From contig JAAOMT010000078.1 of assembly GCA_016748015.1 (NCBI GenBank), positions 1-8,799 on the forward strand: 8,799 nucleotides of DNA, in the 5' to 3' direction. The notes beneath the pieces are model-generated. The model did no database searches, was not told the origin of the DNA, and saw only the letters and a list, made by a program, of their open reading frames with translations. The position numbers were made by a program, and so were the translations under genes. The DNA comes from Geosiphon pyriformis uo1. Taxonomy: Eukaryota > Fungi > Glomeromycota. Below are positions 206 to 8,799 of this stretch, piece by piece (the stretch's first letter is position 1; every line of letters starts with the position of its first letter).

Positions 206-820
206 ATAACAATTACCTACATCACAAAAATTACTGAGTTTACTAGAAAAGATGCTGACACTGGCCACAAGAATGACTTGGCAAAATCCAAAAAACAGAT
301 GATATAAATGAATAGACCACCACTAGAATGCTCAAAGCTATTCTTTATTTTTTTCAAAAAACTGCAGATGAATAATTTGAAAACTTGGCTGAATCTTTTA
401 AAGACTGGCAAGCATTCTAAACTGCTTTTTTGGAACAATTTACAGACAACAATATCTTTATTACATTTCAAAACCAATTCTAAAATATTAAGCAAGAACC
501 ATTTGAATCTGTTATAACTTATCTTAGAAAGTTTAACAAACTACTTTAATGAATTCAACAATTGGAAACCAATGAATACTATTCTAATGTCCAGATTTTA
601 GATCAGTTTATTGCAGGATTAAAAAATAAACTCATTAAAAAAGTTTGTCCACATGCTCTAAAAGACTTAACTACAATCATTTAATATGTAAAAAATTACA
701 AAATGACAATAGAAAAAGCAAATTGCACCAAATTTGTCAACCTTGCAATCAGAAAAACCAGCTTAACAGCTGAAAAAAAAATTGATCAACTTACAAAAAA
801 AGTAAAAAATTACTTTACAA
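206..820 (+). pseudogene. gag: Gag capsid (retrotransposon gag) domain remnant
   Basis: Translation reads ITKITEFTRKD...PQE*LGKI...MLKAILYFFQKTADE*FENL...WQAF*TAFLEQF...NIKQEPFESVITYLRKFNKLL...ILDQFIAGLKNKLIKKV. This contains the Ty3 Gag QxxxESVxxYxxxF (MHR-like) and FIxGL motifs. Confidence 0.85.
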
Positions 821-822
821 AT

Positions 823-843
823 CAACAACAACAGCAACAACAA
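823..843 (+). repeat. (CAA/CAG)7 poly-Gln tract in Gag
   Basis: caacaacaacagcaacaacaa is in frame 1 and encodes QQQQQQQ. Confidence 0.8.
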
Positions 844-912
844 AAATACCAGTTATCTCAACAGTGACTTTAAAACAACTATATATCATTATTAAACAAT
901 CAACTCTAAAGT

Positions 913-954
913 TGTCATTATTGTAGAATTCCAGGACACTGGAAACAATATTGC
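913..954 (+). other. Nucleocapsid CCHC zinc knuckle
   Basis: Frame 1 reads CHYCRIPGHWKQYC, an intact C-X2-C-X4-H-X4-C motif. Confidence 0.93.
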
Positions 955-1512
955 AGGAAAATGCAAAGAGACCAACAATTTAGGAATAATCAACGTTATT
1001 TTTAACTTTAACAATCTTATTACCAACCTTTATTACCAGCTTATTACTTTTTAAAACCTCAATAACAAAATAATTACTATCAATTTACACTACAACAACA
1101 ATATTAACAATCTTCACAGATTTAACAATACCAGGCACCATCCACTTAATAATATTAAGTATTAGCCAAAAAACTGGTCCAACAAAACCAATTCACACCA
1201 CAAAACCGTTTTTCAACAAACAACAACAGATTTAACCCCAACAATTAACTAGTTCCCCGAAATTCTGTTCAGCAAAAACCTAATCAATTTTACATTCAAC
1301 TCAATTATTTAATAATGCCAAAAAAATCGGATTTTTAACAAACTGCACTTTTTAAATATGAAGTTACAGCACTAAAACAAAATCTTTTTAGCAATACAAT
1401 TCTATCAGCCAAAATTGCCCAAAATGCCAATCTCTCAGATATATTTTCATTTGAATTTGAAGCAAACAAATCACTATTTTTACTTAGCAATGCAGCAGTT
1501 AATGAGCAAAAA

Positions 1513-1890
1513 GCAATCACAGCTATATACACAGAAACCAAAATAGAAAAAAAACCAATTTGTTTAATCTTAAACAGTAAATTTGCTAAAAGCATTATTA
1601 CTTATCAATTGATATAACAACTCAAACAAAATATTGACCAACCAGCTCAAATGGTTATTGTTACAGCTAATAGTATAAAAAAAACACTAATAAGAGAAAT
1701 TGACAATTTTTTTTTTATAATTGATGAAATTATTATTTCAGTTAAGATTTTTGTCATAAATACATTCTAATATCAAGTTCTTGTTAAAAATAACTGGCTT
1801 CTTAAAGCCAATGCAAATTTAGATTAAGAGACTCAAGAATTAAAGATCTTATACTAAAGACAATACACCAGAGTACCTGCTACTTGTAGT
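1513..1890 (+). pseudogene. Retropepsin aspartic protease remnant (inactive)
   Basis: ICLILNSKFAKSII at 1558-1599 restores to LILDSGSAGSII by reversing transitions (catalytic D->N at 1573). YQVLVKNNWLLK at 1771-1806 restores to LVGNDWL, the C-terminal protease motif. Confidence 0.85.
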
Positions 1891-2085
1891 ACTTTTAACA
1901 AACAATCAGAAAAAGTCTCAGTGTTTGAATTTAAAGAGAAGAAAAAATTGCCAATTACTGAAACATATATGGCTTTTGGATCAACATCTAATTGGACAAA
2001 AAAAGCAGAACAAAAAATCTTTGAAGAATTCAAAAAATAGAATATTGTTTATTATTTTACACCCAAATTACAAAAAAAACCACTT

Positions 2086-2700
2086 TATATTCTACTAAAA
2101 TACAAAAATTATAACAAAAAGCTTTTATGGATCAAAGCTTACATATTACCAGAGGAGAAATATAAAGAATAAACATGCTATATTTGTAAAGCATACTGTA
2201 AAAAATGATTTAAATATCCAAAAAGAAGTGAAAAATAAAACAATACTATTTGTTTCACATATAGAAAAATGCTACTAGAAGAATACAACTGAATTGATAT
2301 TGTAATAAAAGATTGAGTCTGTAATCAAACTTGTTAATATGTTTTACCAATTGTTAAAAAAGTAAAAAGAAGAACTTTATTTAATATAGCATACAACAGC
2401 ACCCTTAATAAACTCTACTATTATTCATATAATACCAAGATGATTTATAAACTAGCCATAGTTTTGATTAATGAAAGAACCAAAAAAGATGTTTGCCAAA
2501 TAAAAAAAGCAGAATACTTCAAATACACTATAGAATTAACTGGATTTGATTATGAAGATAAAGTCAAAACATACTACCAAATAGCAAATCACACTTATCT
2601 GACCCAAAAAGCTCAAATTCAATAATTAGAACAAATGAACATTAAACTATGTAAGGAGTGCATCATGTTTTGTGATGACTAATAGTGTTCAGAATATTAT
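2086..2700 (+). pseudogene. Cys-rich putative Zn-binding insert between protease and dUTPase (includes the 2440-2625 ORF-track fragment)
   Basis: Frame 1 shows YKNY (2101-2112), CYICKAYC (2176-2199), CFTY (2251-2262), VCNQTC (2317-2334) and CKECIMFCDD**CSEY (2650-2697). Several TAC/TAT codons sit where TGC/TGT would complete a CxxC pair. Confidence 0.6.
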
Positions 2701-2820
2701 ACTCTTAGTATTTTCTTGTCCAACAAAAACAATCAAAAGAAAATCAAATTTGGAAAACCAGAAGAAAAAATTACAACAATCTCAATCTACTTTACTAAAA
2801 ATCAGTCTGCTATATAATTT

Positions 2821-3242
2821 AAATACTTTGACAACAATAAACAAAGAATAAAACCAGAAAAAGCTCATAAAATTGATGCAGAATATGACTTATAATATTT
2901 TGGCAAAAATACTTTAGTTTTTTAACCAAAGTTCTTTACTAAAATTAATCTTAAAATTGTCTCAAAATTTTACTAGAAGCAATAGTTCAAATTGCTTCCT
3001 GATTATTATTGGCAAGCAAAAAAATCAATGTTTAAGGAAGAATTATAAATACAGAATATATTGGAGATATTATTATTATGTTATAAAATAAAATTAATAA
3101 ATCATTCAAAATTGAGCATGCTAAAAAGATTGCACAAGCTATTTATCTATTTTTAATCAAAATTTTGGGTCTGAAATCAGTCAACTAAAGAAAACAATTA
3201 GGCAAGAGTAATAACAAAACTCAAAGTTTTGATTCAACTGGA
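2821..3242 (+). pseudogene. dut: Trimeric-type dUTPase domain remnant within pol
   Basis: All five motifs appear in order: I DAEYDL (2875-2892, =DAGYDL), II IAS*LLLASK (2991-, =IASRSSLASK), III GRIINTEYIGDI (3036-3071, =GxIDAGYxGDI), IV KIAQAI (3126-3143) and V KTQSFDSTG (3216-3242, =xxQGFGSTG). There is a 1-nt frameshift near 2960. Confidence 0.9.
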
Positions 3243-3710
3243 CATTTTATAGTTCTAGTAAACATAACTCTTAAAACACAAATTGAATTTTATCAGATTT
3301 TTAGACTTCCACAACCAATCATTATATCACCCTTTGAAGAATATTACGAAATTTACATTTGCCCAAAATCAACTATTACCTACCAAATTTTTAAATCCAA
3401 TGAAAAAATCTGTCTGAAACATAAAATTTTAATTCCAAATGTTTATATTCCAAAAGAAATAAAGAAATTTTGAATTATATTTTATAATCCCAACAACTAC
3501 TCTATTATCTTATTAAATGGATTAAAAATTGGAGTAATACATAGCAATATCTTTTAAGATAAAACTGTTTAAATTGTTTCTAAATTTATTGAAATTGTGA
3601 AACATACTTTTCTTTCAAACTCAAATATTCTGCCTATTACTGAAAACTACTATTTTATTGAAGAAAAACTTCCTTGAATCAACATAAATCTCTTAGAATC
3701 CCAACAACAA

Positions 3711-4680
3711 AGACAATTAAAGCAACTCATTGCTGAATTTGCTGATATATTTGCAAAAAACAACAATGACCTAGGAAAAACTAATATTGTTCAGCACCAA
3801 ATCTATACAAGAAATACTTTACCAAAACACCAACAAGTCTATTAAGTCCATCTGCCAGCTATTAATTTATTAAAAAAAAGATACAAAAATGCTTAATAAT
3901 AATCTTATTCAATTATTAAAAAGCCTTTGGGTTTCATTAATAGTTCTTGTTAAAAAAAACGGAAAAATCAAATTTTGTGTAAACTATTGTTAACTCAACA
4001 GTGTAACAATTGGAAATGCTTATCTACTTCTAAGAATCAATAACATGCTAGATGCTTTTAGAAAACCAAAGTTTTTTTCAACTTTGGACTTAGAAAGTGA
4101 ATACTGACAAGTTGAAATAGATCTCAAAAATTGATTCAAAACAGCATTTACCATCCAAAAAGGAAATTACAAGTTCAATGTCATGTTTTTTAGACTTTGC
4201 AATACACTAACAACATTTTAGTAACTTATAGATATTGTATATAAAGAACTCTTATGGCAATTAATAGTTGTTTACTATAATAAAACTAATATATATTTCT
4301 TAATATTTAAAGCTTATTTGATTCACCTGTAAAAAGTATTTCAATGATTATAAAAAGCAGAACTGAAATTGAACATTAAAAAATGTTACTTTGGAAAAAC
4401 AAGCTTAATTTTTCTTGGATATATTGTCAGCAAAGATAAAGTTTAATCTAATCCAAAAACAATTAGCACTGTCAAAAACTTCAAAACTCTCAAAAATACT
4501 ATAGAATTAAGAAAATTTATTGAATTAGCCTCTTACTATTAAAAATTTATCAAAAAATTTTCTGAAATTGCAAAACCACTCAATTATCTTATCAACAAAA
4601 ATGTCTTATATTAATAGACTAATGAATAACAGAAAGCTTTTGAAACTCTCAATGTAAAATTAACAACAGTACTAGTTTTT
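3711..4680 (+). pseudogene. Reverse transcriptase domain remnant (Ty3/Gypsy type)
   Basis: Motifs seen: EFADIFAKNNNDLGKTNIVQHQI; SLWVSLIVLVKKNGKIKFCVNYC*LN (=SPWASPVVLV..FCVDYRxLN); AYLLLRINNMLD (=AYPLPRIDDMLD); STLDLESEY*QV; KTAF; VMFFRLCNTLTTF (=VMPFGLCNAPATF); VVYYNK at the YxDD position (4273-4284); LKLNIKKCYFG; FLGYIVS; LASYY*KFIKKFSEIAKPL. Confidence 0.95.
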
Positions 4681-5072
4681 GCCTATTCAGACTTCAACAA
4701 ATAATTCCAATTAGCCACTGATGCTTTATACATAGCATTTAATGCTATTCTATTATAATTGAATCACAATGTCAATAAATAAGTTATTGTTTATGTTAGC
4801 AGAACACTAAAACCTCCAGAAACAAAATATGGCTCAACAAAACTAGAAGCAGCAGCTGTTATTTGGGCTTTTAAACATTTTCAACAATATTTTCAAAATA
4901 GCAAGAAATTTGATATTATCACAAATAATATTAGTCTCAAATGGCTTAACAAAAAAAAACTGGACTTAATGCCAAACAATCTTAATAGATTGATTTCTTA
5001 GCAAATTACAAATTTATTGTCCATTACAAATCTGACAAATTATACACCAATGTTAATAGCCTTTTAAAAATG
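4681..5072 (+). pseudogene. RNase H domain remnant (Ty3/Gypsy type)
   Basis: Motifs seen: DFNK*FQLATDAL (TDAS, D at 4720); YVSRTLKPPETKYGSTKLEAAAVIWAFKHF (E at 4846); IITNN; **IDFLANYKFIVHYKSDKLYTNVNSLLK (=RW...Y.PGK...AD.LSR). Confidence 0.92.
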
Positions 5073-5344
5073 AGGCAAAATTAATAACAAAACTCACAGA
5101 AACAAAACACCAACAACTTATTAGCTTAATAAACAAAAAAATTAACAACAATAAATCTAAAAACTTACAACAATATCAAAAACTATTTAAAGACACTTAC
5201 TATGTCTAAAAACTTGTCTTTAAATAAAAAACACCAATTAAAACAACAATTCAAATAATATTTTATTTATCACAATAAAATTTATTATCAAAATCACCAA
5301 AATCTAATTAACTTATTCCAATTAGTACAAGAAAATAAAAAAAA

Positions 5345-6528
5345 ACAATTCTATATAACATGTACACAGATTTATTATCAGCATATTTAAGAAGAAACAG
5401 TACAATTCAAAGAATACTTGAATATTATTTTTGGCCTCACATGTAAAAAAACATTTGACAGTATATATAATCATGTAATAGTTGTTAAAGAAGAGAAAAA
5501 ATTCACTTCACTGAATCTCTAAATCCAATCAAAGTTGAATAACCTTTTAACAAAGTTGGTATTGATTTAATTGGATCACTATCTATTACCACTTAAGGAA
5601 ACCAATATATAATAGTTGTAGTAGATTACTTTATCAAATGGCTTGAAGCCAGAACTATCTAAAGAACATATACAAAATCAGTAGCAAATTTTATATATGA
5701 ATACATAATTTGTAGATATAAATGCTTAATTAAACTTTTATTTAATTAAAGAATACATTTTGTGAACAATTTGATACAAGAAATTTGTGAATAATTTAAC
5801 ATTAAAAAACTTTTTTTATTACTCTATCATTCTCAAACAAATAGATTTGTAAAATGTTTTAACTAAATATTATGTAAATTACTAGCCAAAGTCTCAACCA
5901 ATTTTAAGCAAGAATAGCATATCTTTATTTTATTAATGTTACTAACTTGTAGAACATTAAAACAAAATACTACAAACACACACTATTTGATCTTACTTAT
6001 AGGAAAACAGCAATATTATCAATTAATTTTACAGTGGAAACATATTTAGTACAACCCATTACAAAAGAAAACTTCCAAGAAACTCTTTAAAAAAAAGCTT
6101 ATACTCTTCTCAGTACATTGAAAAAAAAATAACAAATTACAGCAACTTATATTAAATACTTTTAAGCTTAACAGAAAAAATGAGATAACAACAAATTGCC
6201 ACCAGTTACCAACGAATTTAAAGTTAGAAACAAAGTTTTTTTACACAGAACTAAGACTAAAAAACAATAAAGTAAAAAATTTGAACATAAATAGAATGGA
6301 CTATTTTAAATTCATGAAATCTTAAGCAATAAATTATACAAATTAAGACTTGATAATAAAATCTTAGCTAAAATTGCACATGGAAATTGACTAAAGCACT
6401 ATTATTCCAGAAATAATTTTGAACTATCAATTCCACAAATTGGTATATATTTCTCTTTAATTAATCCTAAAGATATTCTTCGAAATTTAGAATCAATAGT
6501 TATAATAGAACAAAAACCAAACATTTAA
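5345..6528 (+). pseudogene. Integrase remnant (HHCC, rve core, GPY/F; no chromodomain seen)
   Basis: The HHCC finger has H->Y at 5363 and 5384 and CNSC at 5474-5485, with YFWPHM between. The core reads VGIDLIG (D 5564), VDYFIKWLEA, LFN*RIHF (=SDQGTHF, D->N 5744) and YHSQTNRFVKCFN (=YHPQTNGLVERFN, E->K 5852). The second D and the E are exactly 35 residues apart. KFEHK*NGLF (=W.GPF) lies at about 6277-6306. Confidence 0.94.
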
Positions 6529-6682
6529 TTTTATTAATAATCTCTCTAAAAATACAAAAAAATCAATTAAAAATAGTAAAATAACCATTAAAAAATAACC
6601 AAACCCAAAAATATATAAAATCCATATACCAAAAATTATTTTTTTTTATTTTTTTTATTTCCAAAAATTTATTTTTATTATA

Positions 6683-7396
6683 ATGCTTATTCTTTGAAAC
6701 ATTTAACAAATATTTCACAAATTAATATTAGCTTTAAAAACACTTTTTGACTTATCCATAACAATCAATAGAAATCAAATTAATTACATTCAGAAAAAAA
6801 CTACAGCTTCAATAGTAAATAATTTGCAAAATTATCATCTTTATAGAAAAAATACAAAAATTTATTCTGGAATTCAATTATTAAAACTCTTGAAACAAGC
6901 CTTAAAAGAAAACTTTTTATTTGCCCCTATTGATATTGTACCAAATGCCACAATTCAACAAAAGTTTTAACTGTTTCTTAATGAACAAAGTTATAAATAT
7001 ATCTTTATATTTAGATATTTTTATATTAAAAGAACACTTTATGAACAAAAACTGGAACTTACAACAACAAATCTTACTTTAAAAGCTATACAAAAACAAA
7101 TTCACAACAAATTTAAGACAGCAGCTAGATTAACAAACACTCATTAAAAACTTAGAGCAGTTTATAAACTCTATAATCTATTTAATATTTGTGAAAATGT
7201 CCTATAAAATCTAATATTTCAACCAATAAAGATTCAATACATTGGCAAATTTACAAAACTGAAATTTCAACAATTTTTAGACCAAAATACTTCAATAATT
7301 TTGGATCACTATTTTGAAATTACAGATAGTGCTTAGATTTCAATAGAACTTAGTCTTAAGGAGGAGATTATGTTACTAGTAGAATTTAGTCATTAA
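6683..7396 (+). pseudogene. Decayed accessory ORF (~237 codons) of unknown function between integrase and the 3' LTR
   Basis: It runs from ATG 6683 to TAA 7394-7396 entirely in frame 2. There are only 6 internal stops (6695, 6704, 6968, 7145, 7205, 7334), each explicable by a C->T or G->A change. The translation is protein-like and runs across the PPT into the LTR. Confidence 0.7.
7358..7367 (+). promoter_or_regulatory. Polypurine tract (plus-strand primer)
   Basis: AAGGAGGAGA is a conspicuously G-rich purine run followed by TTA and then TGTTAC at 7371, the expected PPT/LTR junction geometry. Confidence 0.75.
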
Positions 7397-7569
7397 TTAG
7401 CATGAAATTATCTTTATAATTCGTATCATTAATTAGCATATATTAATATCATTTCAAATTATAACTTATTATTTAATCAAATTATTAAATATCACTATTT
7501 AATTAATAATCTAATTTTTATAATAAAATTAGGATGATCAAATTATACAATACTCTATACTATATAACA
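7371..7569 (+). repeat. Probable 3' LTR (start well supported, end uncertain)
   Basis: It starts TGTTAC just after the PPT. The candidate end ATAACA (7564-7569) is GTAACA with one G->A change. It contains AATAAA at 7522-7527 and an internal 14-bp direct repeat TCATTAATTAGCAT (7390-7403, 7426-7439). An alternative end lies at 8340, and there is no 5' LTR in the window for comparison. Confidence 0.5.
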
Positions 7570-7575
7570 TTCAAA

Positions 7576-7696
7576 AATTCACTGAAATTTGTAGAAATTT
7601 ATCGAAATTATGAATAATTTACTAAAATTACAAATAGTTCACTAAAATAACTTGTAGTTTGCCAAAATATATCTTTAGTTCATTGAAATCATAGCA
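7576..7696. repeat. Degenerate ~20-bp tandem repeat, 6 units
   Basis: Units: aattcactgaaatttgtaga / aatttatcgaaattatgaat / aatttactaaaattacaaat / agttcactaaaataacttgt / agtttgccaaaatatatcttt / agttcattgaaatcatagca. The inferred ancestral core is AGTTCACCGAAAT. Confidence 0.7.
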
Positions 7697-8063
7697 AAAA
7701 AAAAAGTTCAAGTTTATAGATTAGTATTATAACAATTTGTATAAAAAAAGAGCTTTTTTTTCAAAAAAATGTATCTTTTATTAGAATTATCTTATTATAG
7801 ATATTTTTTTTACTTCTTTAAAAAAAAAATTAAATACTTAAAAACCAAATTTCTTAATTAAAAATTGCACTTAAAATTTCTTAAAAACTCTACTAATGTT
7901 TTGAAATTGATTAGCCACAAATTTTAGTAAACTGTTAGTAATTCCAGGTCTGAACCAAAAAATGATTCTCTTTACAAAATTCTAATTCTTTTATATTTCT
8001 TTTATTTTCTTTTATTTTTTTTATTATAATTATTAAGGTAGTTTACAGACAAGATTCTTATAG

Positions 8064-8164
8064 AAAAGTTGACTTTTATTACAAAATAACTACACAATTT
8101 TAGTGAGCTTTTAGATGAGCAATTTTTGAGAAAAAGTTGATATTTACTACAATATAACTACATA
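8064..8164. repeat. 33-bp imperfect direct repeat, 2 copies 68 bp apart
   Basis: aaaagttgacttttattacaaaataactacaca (8064-8096) matches aaaagttgatatttactacaatataactacata (8132-8164) at 28 of 33 positions. Confidence 0.65.
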
Positions 8165-8341
8165 AAGTAATTGGCACAAAATTGGTTATTTCACTTATAA
8201 GTTTAGCAGTTCAAATTATAGAAGATAATTTAAAAAGTAAATTCAGTTATCGGAGATTCAACTACTTTTAGAAAATGTGAATTCACAGCAATTAAGCATT
8301 AACAACATTCAAGAAAAGAGACCAAAAATCTTTAGTAACAG

Positions 8342-8627
8342 TGTATTTTTTTTAAAATTTTATTGTAAATTAAATTTTATTGAAAGATATTAGAAAGCTG
8401 CTAAAAAATATATATATAACAAATATGATTATTTATGGAAAAGATTACAAAGAACAATGCTTAAAAATTTTAAATCAGTATTTTTAATAACTATTAGACA
8501 ATTTTCAAGAAAATATTGATGTTATATAAATTTTTATAAAAAAAATATTGGTAAAAAATTAGTAAAATATGTTATAAAAAATTAGAAATCTTATAAAAAA
8601 ATTCCAGATAATATTCAAACTTTGTAA
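8342..8627 (+). pseudogene. C-terminal remnant of an IS630/Tc1/mariner-superfamily (DDE_3-like) transposase
   Basis: Frame 3 reads FFLKFYCKLNFIERY*KAAKKY...DYLWKRLQRTM...SVFLITIRQFSRKY*CYINFYKK...YVIKN*KSYKKIPDNIQTL*. Reversing transitions gives PKFHCELNFIERYWGAAK...YKSHRRIP, a variant of the PxxSPDLNPIE motif with the catalytic E at 8382-8384. Confidence 0.75.
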
Positions 8628-8799
8628 TACTGTATTTGGTTTAATATTATATAAAATTTAATAAAATTTTTTTTTTTTTATAAATAATATATTAAAAACA
8701 CATGTATATTAACCAATAAAATTTAATTATATAAAAAAAAACACGTGAAGATCATCATTTAAAATTTCGGACTGATCTACATTTTTGATGATTATAAAT

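What the first reader, a model, noticed from the sequence alone, without database searches (positions are those of the whole stretch)
6683..7396. Unknown ~237-aa accessory gene in the env position of the Ty3/Gypsy element, overlapping the PPT and LTR
Seen: a single-frame decayed ORF, missed by the ORF track, reading MLIL*NI*QIFHKLILALKTLFDL...FRYFYIKRTLYEQKLEL...IHNKFKTAARLTNTH*KLRAVYKLYNLFNIC...PIKIQYIGKFTKLKFQQFLDQ...ELSLKEEIMLLVEFSH*. It has 6 stops in 237 codons, against my rough expectation of about 20 for random sequence of this composition. It shows no obvious signal peptide, transmembrane anchor, furin site or Cys pattern, and it looks soluble and helical. Known: this slot holds env in errantiviruses and extra ORFs in some plant elements. 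Inference: this is a conserved non-env cargo protein, perhaps an anti-silencing, nucleic-acid-binding or cell-to-cell movement factor, defining an undescribed multi-module retroelement lineage.
Basis: partly seen in the sequence, partly recalled or inferred. Interest (0 to 1): 0.8.

Follow-up and report, generated by a model that had tools for sequence, protein, structure and literature searches.

The report
Third gene of fungal Gypsy retrotransposon
This is a mutation-killed copy of a real extra gene that a large family of Gypsy-type jumping genes in Geosiphon-type fungi carries behind its integrase; it is not an envelope gene and likely encodes a small DNA-binding helper of the element, a function that is predicted and untested.

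Summary
The ORF is real. 6683-7396 has 6 internal stops in 237 codons against 19±4 in shuffles. Stop-free relatives abound: 87 hits, then 221 with a profile; every listed hit is a Geosiphon pyriformis hypothetical protein. A distant metagenomic lineage (27-31% identical, same length) also exists; in one contig it lies behind an integrase tail. The last codons run over the polypurine tract (7357-7370) into a 970-nt LTR (TGTTAC 7371...GTAACA 8340). The element also encodes a dUTPase. Env is excluded: no transmembrane segment in 50 of 50 members, all-helical model. No family or fold match is significant. Weak, concordant hints point to a DUF1016-N/ParB-KorB-like helix-turn-helix, so my best guess is a nuclear DNA-binding trans-factor for the element (about 45%). 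No RNA data could be examined. Extra ORFs and dUTPases in Gypsy elements are known; this protein family appears undescribed. The scan noted similar extra genes in other fungal Gypsy elements, with no sequence look-alike. New variant of a known kind.

The parts
574..1092 (+). C-terminal part of gag, decayed; CCHC zinc knuckle at 913-954
   Evidence: six-frame translation; tblastn to gene models P0133/P0158, P0133 has a weak Ty3_capsid hit, E 0.0026
1384..1791 (+). aspartic protease region of pol, decayed
   Evidence: 43% to P0141 197-328, which holds Asp_protease_2, E 2.8e-5
2050..2790 (+). unannotated Cys-rich (CxxC) stretch of pol
   Evidence: translation; no Pfam hit; 60% to P0146
2791..3260 (+). 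dUTPase domain, decayed, frame change near 2961
   Evidence: PF00692 E 1.3e-7 on 2961-3260; tblastn with P0149/P0139
3883..5001 (+). reverse transcriptase and RNase H, decayed
   Evidence: RVT_1 E 1e-7, RT_RNaseH_2 E 2.9e-22, RT_RNaseH E 8.3e-22
5078..6528 (+). integrase with Tf2-1-like SH3 C-terminal part, decayed, frame change near 5990; no chromodomain hit
   Evidence: Integrase_H2C2 E 3.3e-11, SH3_Tf2-1 E 0.015; E 1.8e-5 in relative P0072
6529..6682 (+). A/T-rich non-coding spacer, poorly shared among copies; TATATAA at 6612
   Evidence: contig depth 866-1600 at 6523-6645 against >=10,000 in the ORF; 6629-6694 was masked as repeat; motif scan
6683..7396 (+). ORF3, the finding: dead copy of a 221-245-aa all-helical accessory protein gene
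7357..7370 (+). polypurine tract inside ORF3 (encodes the EEIM part)
   Evidence: 11 of 14 purines directly before TGTTAC; same ELSLEEEIMLP peptide in the 27%-identical lineage
7371..8340 (+). 3' LTR, 970 nt, TGTTAC...GTAACA inverted ends
   Evidence: termini; contig depth rises from the 7384-7424 bin and falls after the 8302-8428 bin; four gene models diverge after the matching end. The 5' LTR is outside the window, so no LTR pair or target-site duplication was checked

Best explanation
The stretch is a dead copy of the third gene of a dUTPase-bearing Ty3/Gypsy retrotransposon family, lying between integrase and the 3' LTR, and its product is likely a nuclear helix-turn-helix-type DNA-binding protein that would act in trans on the element's own LTR to keep copies transcribed in a methylating host. 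Shown: open family members, position, overlap with PPT and LTR, conservation across two distant lineages, no membrane features. Predicted: an all-helical core of about 110 aa. Inferred: expression from a separate sub-genomic RNA (it is 154 nt behind the pol stop); nuclear import through a conserved PY-basic linker motif; DNA contact through the basic helix after the conserved TN motif; the LTR as target. This copy then decayed by C-to-T and G-to-A changes like the rest of the element. That it is a functional element-encoded accessory gene I put at about 0.9; the confidence given is for the DNA-binding regulator mechanism.
For: Open relatives: 87 of 285 candidates, 221 with a profile, 120 listed. 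Distant lineage P0165/P0187, 234 aa, stop-free, 35% over 125 aa to P0025, E 5e-20; hydrophobic pattern kept at non-identical sites, odds ratio 3.9, p 1.7e-4. Position: 16 of 30 fused gene models (among 187 stored proteins) carry the integrase C-terminus upstream; contig L001 shows integrase tail then the homologue. Selection: changes against the decay direction 6 synonymous of 9, pN/pS 0.18, p 0.013, while decay-type changes are neutral, 14 of 39, pN/pS 1.1; no indel at >=45% share in the ORF. DNA-binding hints: Pfam DUF1016_N in 8 of 50 members, best E 0.012; profile-profile score 23.9 over 104 columns in register, reached by 0 of 95 column and 0 of 94 block shuffles; model resembles ParB (Z 4.9, rmsd 3.0, 59 aligned), KorB (Z 4.3, 2.7, 55) and sigma-F (Z 5.1, 2.5, 56) helical domains; conserved YF.IG..L and G.TN.R...A..RLY..F motifs. 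Window CpG o/e 0.12; TEs are CG-methylated in the related Rhizophagus (10.1101/2021.03.30.436303, passages).
Against: No match reaches significance: DUF1016_N bits 13-16 against a cut-off of 32.8, 42 of 50 members and both distant-lineage proteins have no such hit; HHalign probability 5.8% and the family was chosen after seeing the Pfam hit; all fold Z <= 6.0, inside the range of common helical arrangements, with non-DNA-binding proteins ranked as high. Whole-protein charge is not consistently basic, pI 5.2-9.2. The PY motif pattern is complete in only 39 of 75 decayed members. The pN/pS sample is 9 changes from truncated tables, and transversions were 6 non-synonymous of 7; subfamily A/B substitutions are only modestly conservative, P 0.012-0.060. 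Nothing in my calls ties the protein to the LTR or to silencing.
Confidence: 0.45

Rival explanations
1. ORF3 is an RNA- or cDNA-binding helper of the particle: it would chaperone, package or move the element's RNA or pre-integration complex, for instance between nuclei of the coenocytic hypha.
For: Same weak nucleic-acid-binding hints; top structural rows include filamentous-virus capsid proteins (PFV2 Z 5.8, rmsd 3.2, 67 aligned; AFV1 ORF132 Z 4.3, rmsd 2.4, 53 aligned) and the first Atlas hit for P0165 is a closterovirus coat cluster at 0.91. Such roles are proposed for plant extra ORFs (PMC7264820, sections 4 and 7 read).
Against: The Atlas hit shares 138 of 256 features, under the 170 typical of true family hits, and recognition is below the tool's threshold; fold scores are in the chance range; protein not strongly basic; gag has its own CCHC knuckle.
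Confidence: 0.2
2. ORF3 is a protein-interaction adaptor that blocks a host defence (RNAi or DNA methylation) without touching nucleic acid, analogous in position to retroviral accessory genes that overlap the 3' LTR (analogy recalled).
For: Small, all-helical, fast-evolving (27-31% between lineages), neutral to acidic in the distant lineage; host lineage silences TEs by methylation and small RNA (Rhizophagus).
Against: No direct evidence; the best-conserved residues form the DUF1016-N-like motif with a basic helix.
Confidence: 0.22
3. ORF3 is a captured host or foreign gene fragment carried passively, with no function for the element.
For: Copies are decaying; one contig joins 6511 to 7463, skipping the ORF; the selection sample is small.
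Against: Open and full length in lineages at 27% identity, chance of 233 stop-free codons about 3e-9 at the shuffled stop rate; C-terminus written through the PPT in both lineages; adjacent spacer is far less shared than the ORF; no host-gene-like homologue among listed hits.
Confidence: 0.06
4. ORF3 is an env or env-like membrane protein.
For: Only its position and sense orientation.
Against: Maximum 19-residue hydropathy 0.46-1.55, none of 50 at 1.6; no furin motif in 8 of 8; 1-2 Cys; all-helical soluble core; no env family in Pfam scans of 50 members.
Confidence: 0.02

Closest known systems
Additional ORFs of unknown function and dUTPase domains in fungal Gypsy elements (Novikova, Smyshlyaev, Blinov 2010; PMC2864245, passages read)
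   Same: Fungal Ty3/Gypsy element with an extra ORF; dUTPase between PR and RT as in PosPlaTy3-5.
   Different: Those are chromoviruses of asco-, basidio- and chytrid fungi; here no chromodomain hit, host in Glomeromycota, ORF overlaps PPT and LTR. Their add. ORF sequences were not compared (supplements not read).
ORF3s of bdelloid rotifer LTR retrotransposons (PMC5408684, abstract and passages read)
   Same: dUTPase-bearing pol followed by a non-env third ORF.
   Different: Those ORF3s are GDSL esterases, DEDDy exonucleases, transmembrane or env proteins; this one has no enzyme or membrane signature.
[quoted passage not shown]
   Same: Conserved in most copies, sense orientation, proposed accessory role; some plant antisense products are nuclear.
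   Different: Plant sense aORFs are env-like with transmembrane domains; no sequence relation detected here.
DUF1016 N-terminal domain (PF17761, YhcG) and ParB/KorB DNA-binding domains
   Same: Weak in-register motif match over about 65-100 residues; similar three-helix arrangement at Z 4-5.
   Different: Far below family thresholds; no PD-(D/E)XK nuclease partner domain; eukaryotic retroelement context. YhcG's N-terminal domain was itself of unknown function in PMC1189080 (passages read).

Membership tests
Ty3/Gypsy LTR retrotransposon (host element) | Order gag-PR-RT-RH-IN on one strand | tested here: met
Ty3/Gypsy LTR retrotransposon (host element) | PPT followed by an LTR with TG...CA inverted ends | tested here: met
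   7357-7370; TGTTAC 7371, GTAACA 8340; depth profile
Ty3/Gypsy LTR retrotransposon (host element) | Paired 5' and 3' LTRs, PBS, target-site duplication | not testable with these tools
   5' end is outside the window; no genome held
Chromovirus | Chromodomain at integrase C-terminus | tested here: not met
   only SH3_Tf2-1 in window 5992-6525, P0072 and P0068; RT phylogeny not done
Conserved additional ORF (ORF3/aORF) | Open and present in many copies, between pol and 3' LTR | tested here: met
   share of full-length elements that carry it not measured
Conserved additional ORF (ORF3/aORF) | Purifying selection on the protein | tested here: met
   open at 27% identity with kept hydrophobic pattern; pN/pS 0.18 on 9 changes; no full dN/dS
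Conserved additional ORF (ORF3/aORF) | Own sub-genomic or spliced transcript | not testable with these tools
   no RNA holder listed
env / env-like | Transmembrane anchor | tested here: not met
   0 of 50
env / env-like | Furin site and Cys-rich ectodomain | tested here: not met
   0 of 8 with furin motif; 1-2 Cys
DUF1016_N (PF17761) | Pfam gathering score 32.8 | tested here: not met
   best 15.8 bits among those shown; 8 of 50 sub-threshold hits
DUF1016_N (PF17761) | Remote profile-profile homology | tested here: inconclusive
   P 0.0065, probability 5.8%, above all 189 shuffles, family picked post hoc
ParB/KorB-type helix-turn-helix | Fold match above background | tested here: inconclusive
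   Z 4.9 and 4.3 among many helical rows
ParB/KorB-type helix-turn-helix | DNA binding | not testable with these tools
   needs a binding assay

The most novel reading that the evidence does not exclude
A lineage of dUTPase-bearing Ty3/Gypsy elements in early-diverging mycorrhizal fungi has recruited a bacterial-type (DUF1016-N/ParB-KorB-like) helix-turn-helix protein as its own trans-activator or anti-silencing factor, written through the PPT into the LTR like the accessory genes of complex retroviruses; it would help explain why LTR elements fill about 41% of the Geosiphon genome.
Probability: 0.2. Interest if true: 0.8.

Novelty: new variant of a known kind. Interest (0 to 1): 0.5.

Why it matters
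Functions of non-env extra genes in LTR retrotransposons are mostly unknown (PMC7264820). This one is small, soluble, has many stop-free copies, a usable structure model and a candidate target (the LTR), so it is directly testable. G. pyriformis has 41.2% of its genome in LTR sequences (PMC11952901, passage read); an element-encoded regulator would be a candidate cause. At a practical level, well over a hundred 'hypothetical proteins' of that annotation are this transposon gene, not host orphan genes.

Tried and rejected
No genome held for the window, so no LTR pair, copy census or codon-level dN/dS. No RNA holder listed; this says nothing on expression. Full-length model was poor (pLDDT 45.8) and its fold search gave nothing above Z 5.7. 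Foldseek of the good core model: no match at E<=0.001 in viral or PDB libraries; wide search best Z 6.0; a second-look fold job was not run. PDB sequence search: two hits at E 0.37 and 0.96. NCBIfam FtsQ hits (best E 4.6e-4, 19.5 bits against cut-off 366) rejected as chance: FtsQ's fold (recalled) does not fit an all-helical model. phrog_23683 (E 8e-5 for P0041) traced to a 125-aa Bacillus phage protein with one close relative; the match is one amphipathic helix, rejected. No relative among the 141 and 138 pattern matches in viral contigs and prokaryote genomes. The idea that the extra ORF of L001 is a paralogue of ORF3 failed: 155 of 2000 shuffles scored as high. Antisense frames over the ORF, the LTR's sense frames and the 3' flank have no Pfam hit at E<=0.01. 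Ten literature searches listed no paper describing this ORF family; the Geosiphon genome paper was not held and it or unseen supplements (Novikova 2010 Additional file 1; the AMF TE library of PMC11952901) may bear on novelty. No complex prediction was run.

Full report
Observation. Dinucleotide shuffles give 19.0+-4.0 (P 0.0004), and P stays 0.0005 for the best of six frames. The window is 16-30% GC with CpG at 0.12 of expectation, the pattern of methylation-driven decay.

The element. Pfam places RT and RNase H at 3883-5001 and integrase at 5078-6528, a dUTPase at 2791-3260, and relatives place protease and gag upstream. A CCHC knuckle lies at 913-954. Behind the ORF's EEIM codons (PPT, 7357-7370) TGTTAC starts at 7371 and the only downstream GTAACA ends at 8340. 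In one DNA run, 12,667 contig pieces lay on 5000-8799; summed depth is high from about 7384 to the 8302-8428 bin and falls about fifteenfold after it. The tool warns that depth is no copy number; I use it only as a boundary sign. Four gene models of other copies pass through the same end and then diverge. So the ORF covers the PPT and 26 nt of a 970-nt LTR. The 5' LTR is outside the window and no genome was held.

The family. The X-read protein finds 87 relatives among 285 candidates, 50-73% identical, all named G. pyriformis hypothetical proteins. A profile finds 221; the 120 listed are again all from that species, and 101 were not shown. Full-length members are 221-245 aa in two subfamilies that part right after the LTR start. 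I infer the window is from this fungus or close kin. A search of 1.84 billion representatives gave 30 hits, the last a 234-aa metagenomic protein, P0165, 27% identical; it has an 86% relative, P0187, and matches P0025 at 35% over 125 aa, E 5e-20. Both end in ELSLEEEIMLPDE, nearly identical to the Geosiphon tail while the rest is about 27% alike, as expected if the same PPT and LTR start underlie it (inference; their DNA was not seen). One metagenome contig, L001 (1 of 165 pattern matches), shows an integrase C-terminal tail matching window 6421-6510 (50%, E 8e-6), an A/T-rich spacer, a further 128-aa ORF, and then the homologue. Among 187 stored proteins that match the ORF, 157 stand alone and 30 are fused gene models; 16 have the integrase C-terminus upstream. 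These are predictor joins and show neighbourhood, not real splicing.

Selection. No DNA of intact copies was available. Differences between the window and other copies were taken from two truncated tables (40 of 608 and 40 of 94 rows shown). I kept the 55 ORF positions with at least 10% share in run X1 and dropped the rest. The 39 decay-type changes are neutral (14 synonymous, pN/pS 1.1). The 9 opposite transitions, which should include changes fixed while the lineage was active, are 6 synonymous (pN/pS 0.18, p 0.013); 7 transversions are 6 non-synonymous. Subfamilies A (32 proteins) and B (41) differ at 61 of 221 columns with mildly conservative changes (P 0.012 or 0.060 by model); P0165 keeps the hydrophobic pattern at non-identical sites (p 1.7e-4). 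No indel reaches 45% share in the ORF, and the unmasked part of the spacer is covered ten to a hundred times less than the ORF at 80% likeness. Together with stop-free full length at 27% identity this makes a selected protein-coding gene very likely.

The protein. None of 50 members has a 19-residue hydropathy of 1.6; the 8 checked lack a furin motif and have 1-2 Cys, pI 5.2-9.2. The core (151 aa of P0165, 60-row alignment) folds at pLDDT 77, pTM 0.69, all helical. Foldseek found nothing significant. The wide search peaked at Z 6.0; ParB, KorB and sigma-F helical domains, RecX, the CHD1 C-terminal domain and two filamentous-virus proteins appear at Z 4.3-5.8 among unrelated bundles, which is inconclusive. 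Pfam DUF1016_N hits 8 of 50 members below threshold, and an Atlas DUF1016 cluster appears at 0.80, a lead only. A profile of 14 DUF1016-N sequences aligns in register to 10 ORF3 sequences over 104 columns (P 0.0065, probability 5.8%), above 95 column shuffles, 94 block shuffles and the reversed alignment; the family was chosen after the Pfam hint. A PY followed by basic residues is kept in the low-confidence linker of both lineages; its likeness to a PY-type nuclear signal is recalled, not tested. That DUF1016_N is HTH-like is also recalled.

Mechanism. I commit to a nuclear DNA-binding trans-factor acting on the element's LTR (0.45). Rivals: a host-defence antagonist working by protein contact (0.22), an RNA or particle helper (0.2), a passenger (0.06), env (0.02). 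Expression would need a sub-genomic RNA; a TATATAA lies 71 nt before the ATG, weak evidence in such A/T-rich DNA, and no RNA holder was listed.

Comparison and novelty. Extra ORFs and dUTPases in fungal Gypsy elements are published (PMC2864245, passages), non-env ORF3s with dUTPase-bearing pol in rotifers (PMC5408684, abstract and passages), and accessory-factor roles are proposed for plant aORFs (PMC7264820, abstract, sections 4 and 7). G. pyriformis has 41.2% LTR sequence (PMC11952901, passages). Ten searches listed no description of this ORF family; the genome paper was not held. Earlier scan notes report orphan extra genes in other fungal Gypsy elements, but sequence look-ups with P0022 and P0165 found no look-alike. 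Verdict: real, new variant of a known kind, interest 0.5.

Noticed in passing
L001:425-808: The distant lineage has a further open 128-aa ORF between the integrase tail and the ORF3 homologue, absent from the window. No Pfam hit. 55 residues match the zinc-knuckle region of a gag in gene model P0133 (36%, E 3.5e-6, 0 of 1000 shuffles) but without the Cys/His ligands; unexplained.
   Followed up: partly
window:2791-3260: dUTPase domain between protease and RT.
   Followed up: yes
window:2050-2790: About 250 aa of pol with several CxxC motifs and no Pfam hit, shared with other copies (P0146); possible zinc-binding module.
   Followed up: partly
window:3260-3845: A second unannotated stretch before RT; its end scores a borderline Spuma_A9PTase hit (E 3e-4), probably the pre-RT linker rather than a second protease.
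   Followed up: no
window:6511-7463: One contig joins these places, skipping the whole ORF3 and PPT: a deleted copy or an ORF3-less relative.
   Followed up: no
window:8179-8340 and 6923 (gene model P0073): One gene model runs from LTR-end sequence into ORF3, the layout a spliced sub-genomic RNA from the 5' LTR would have; a prediction only, and a deleted copy would look the same.
   Followed up: no
window:8054-8169: A degenerate repeat of about 34 nt, 68 nt apart, inside the LTR, variable in number among copies; a candidate binding site for an LTR regulator.
   Followed up: no
window:8341-8799: The 3' flank is itself repetitive (depth 12,000-30,000) with no Pfam hit.
   Followed up: partly
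P0165 (Atlas): Second hit is an unnamed 98-member Mucoromycota cluster at 0.90; may be a wider fungal family, sequences not available to test.
   Followed up: no
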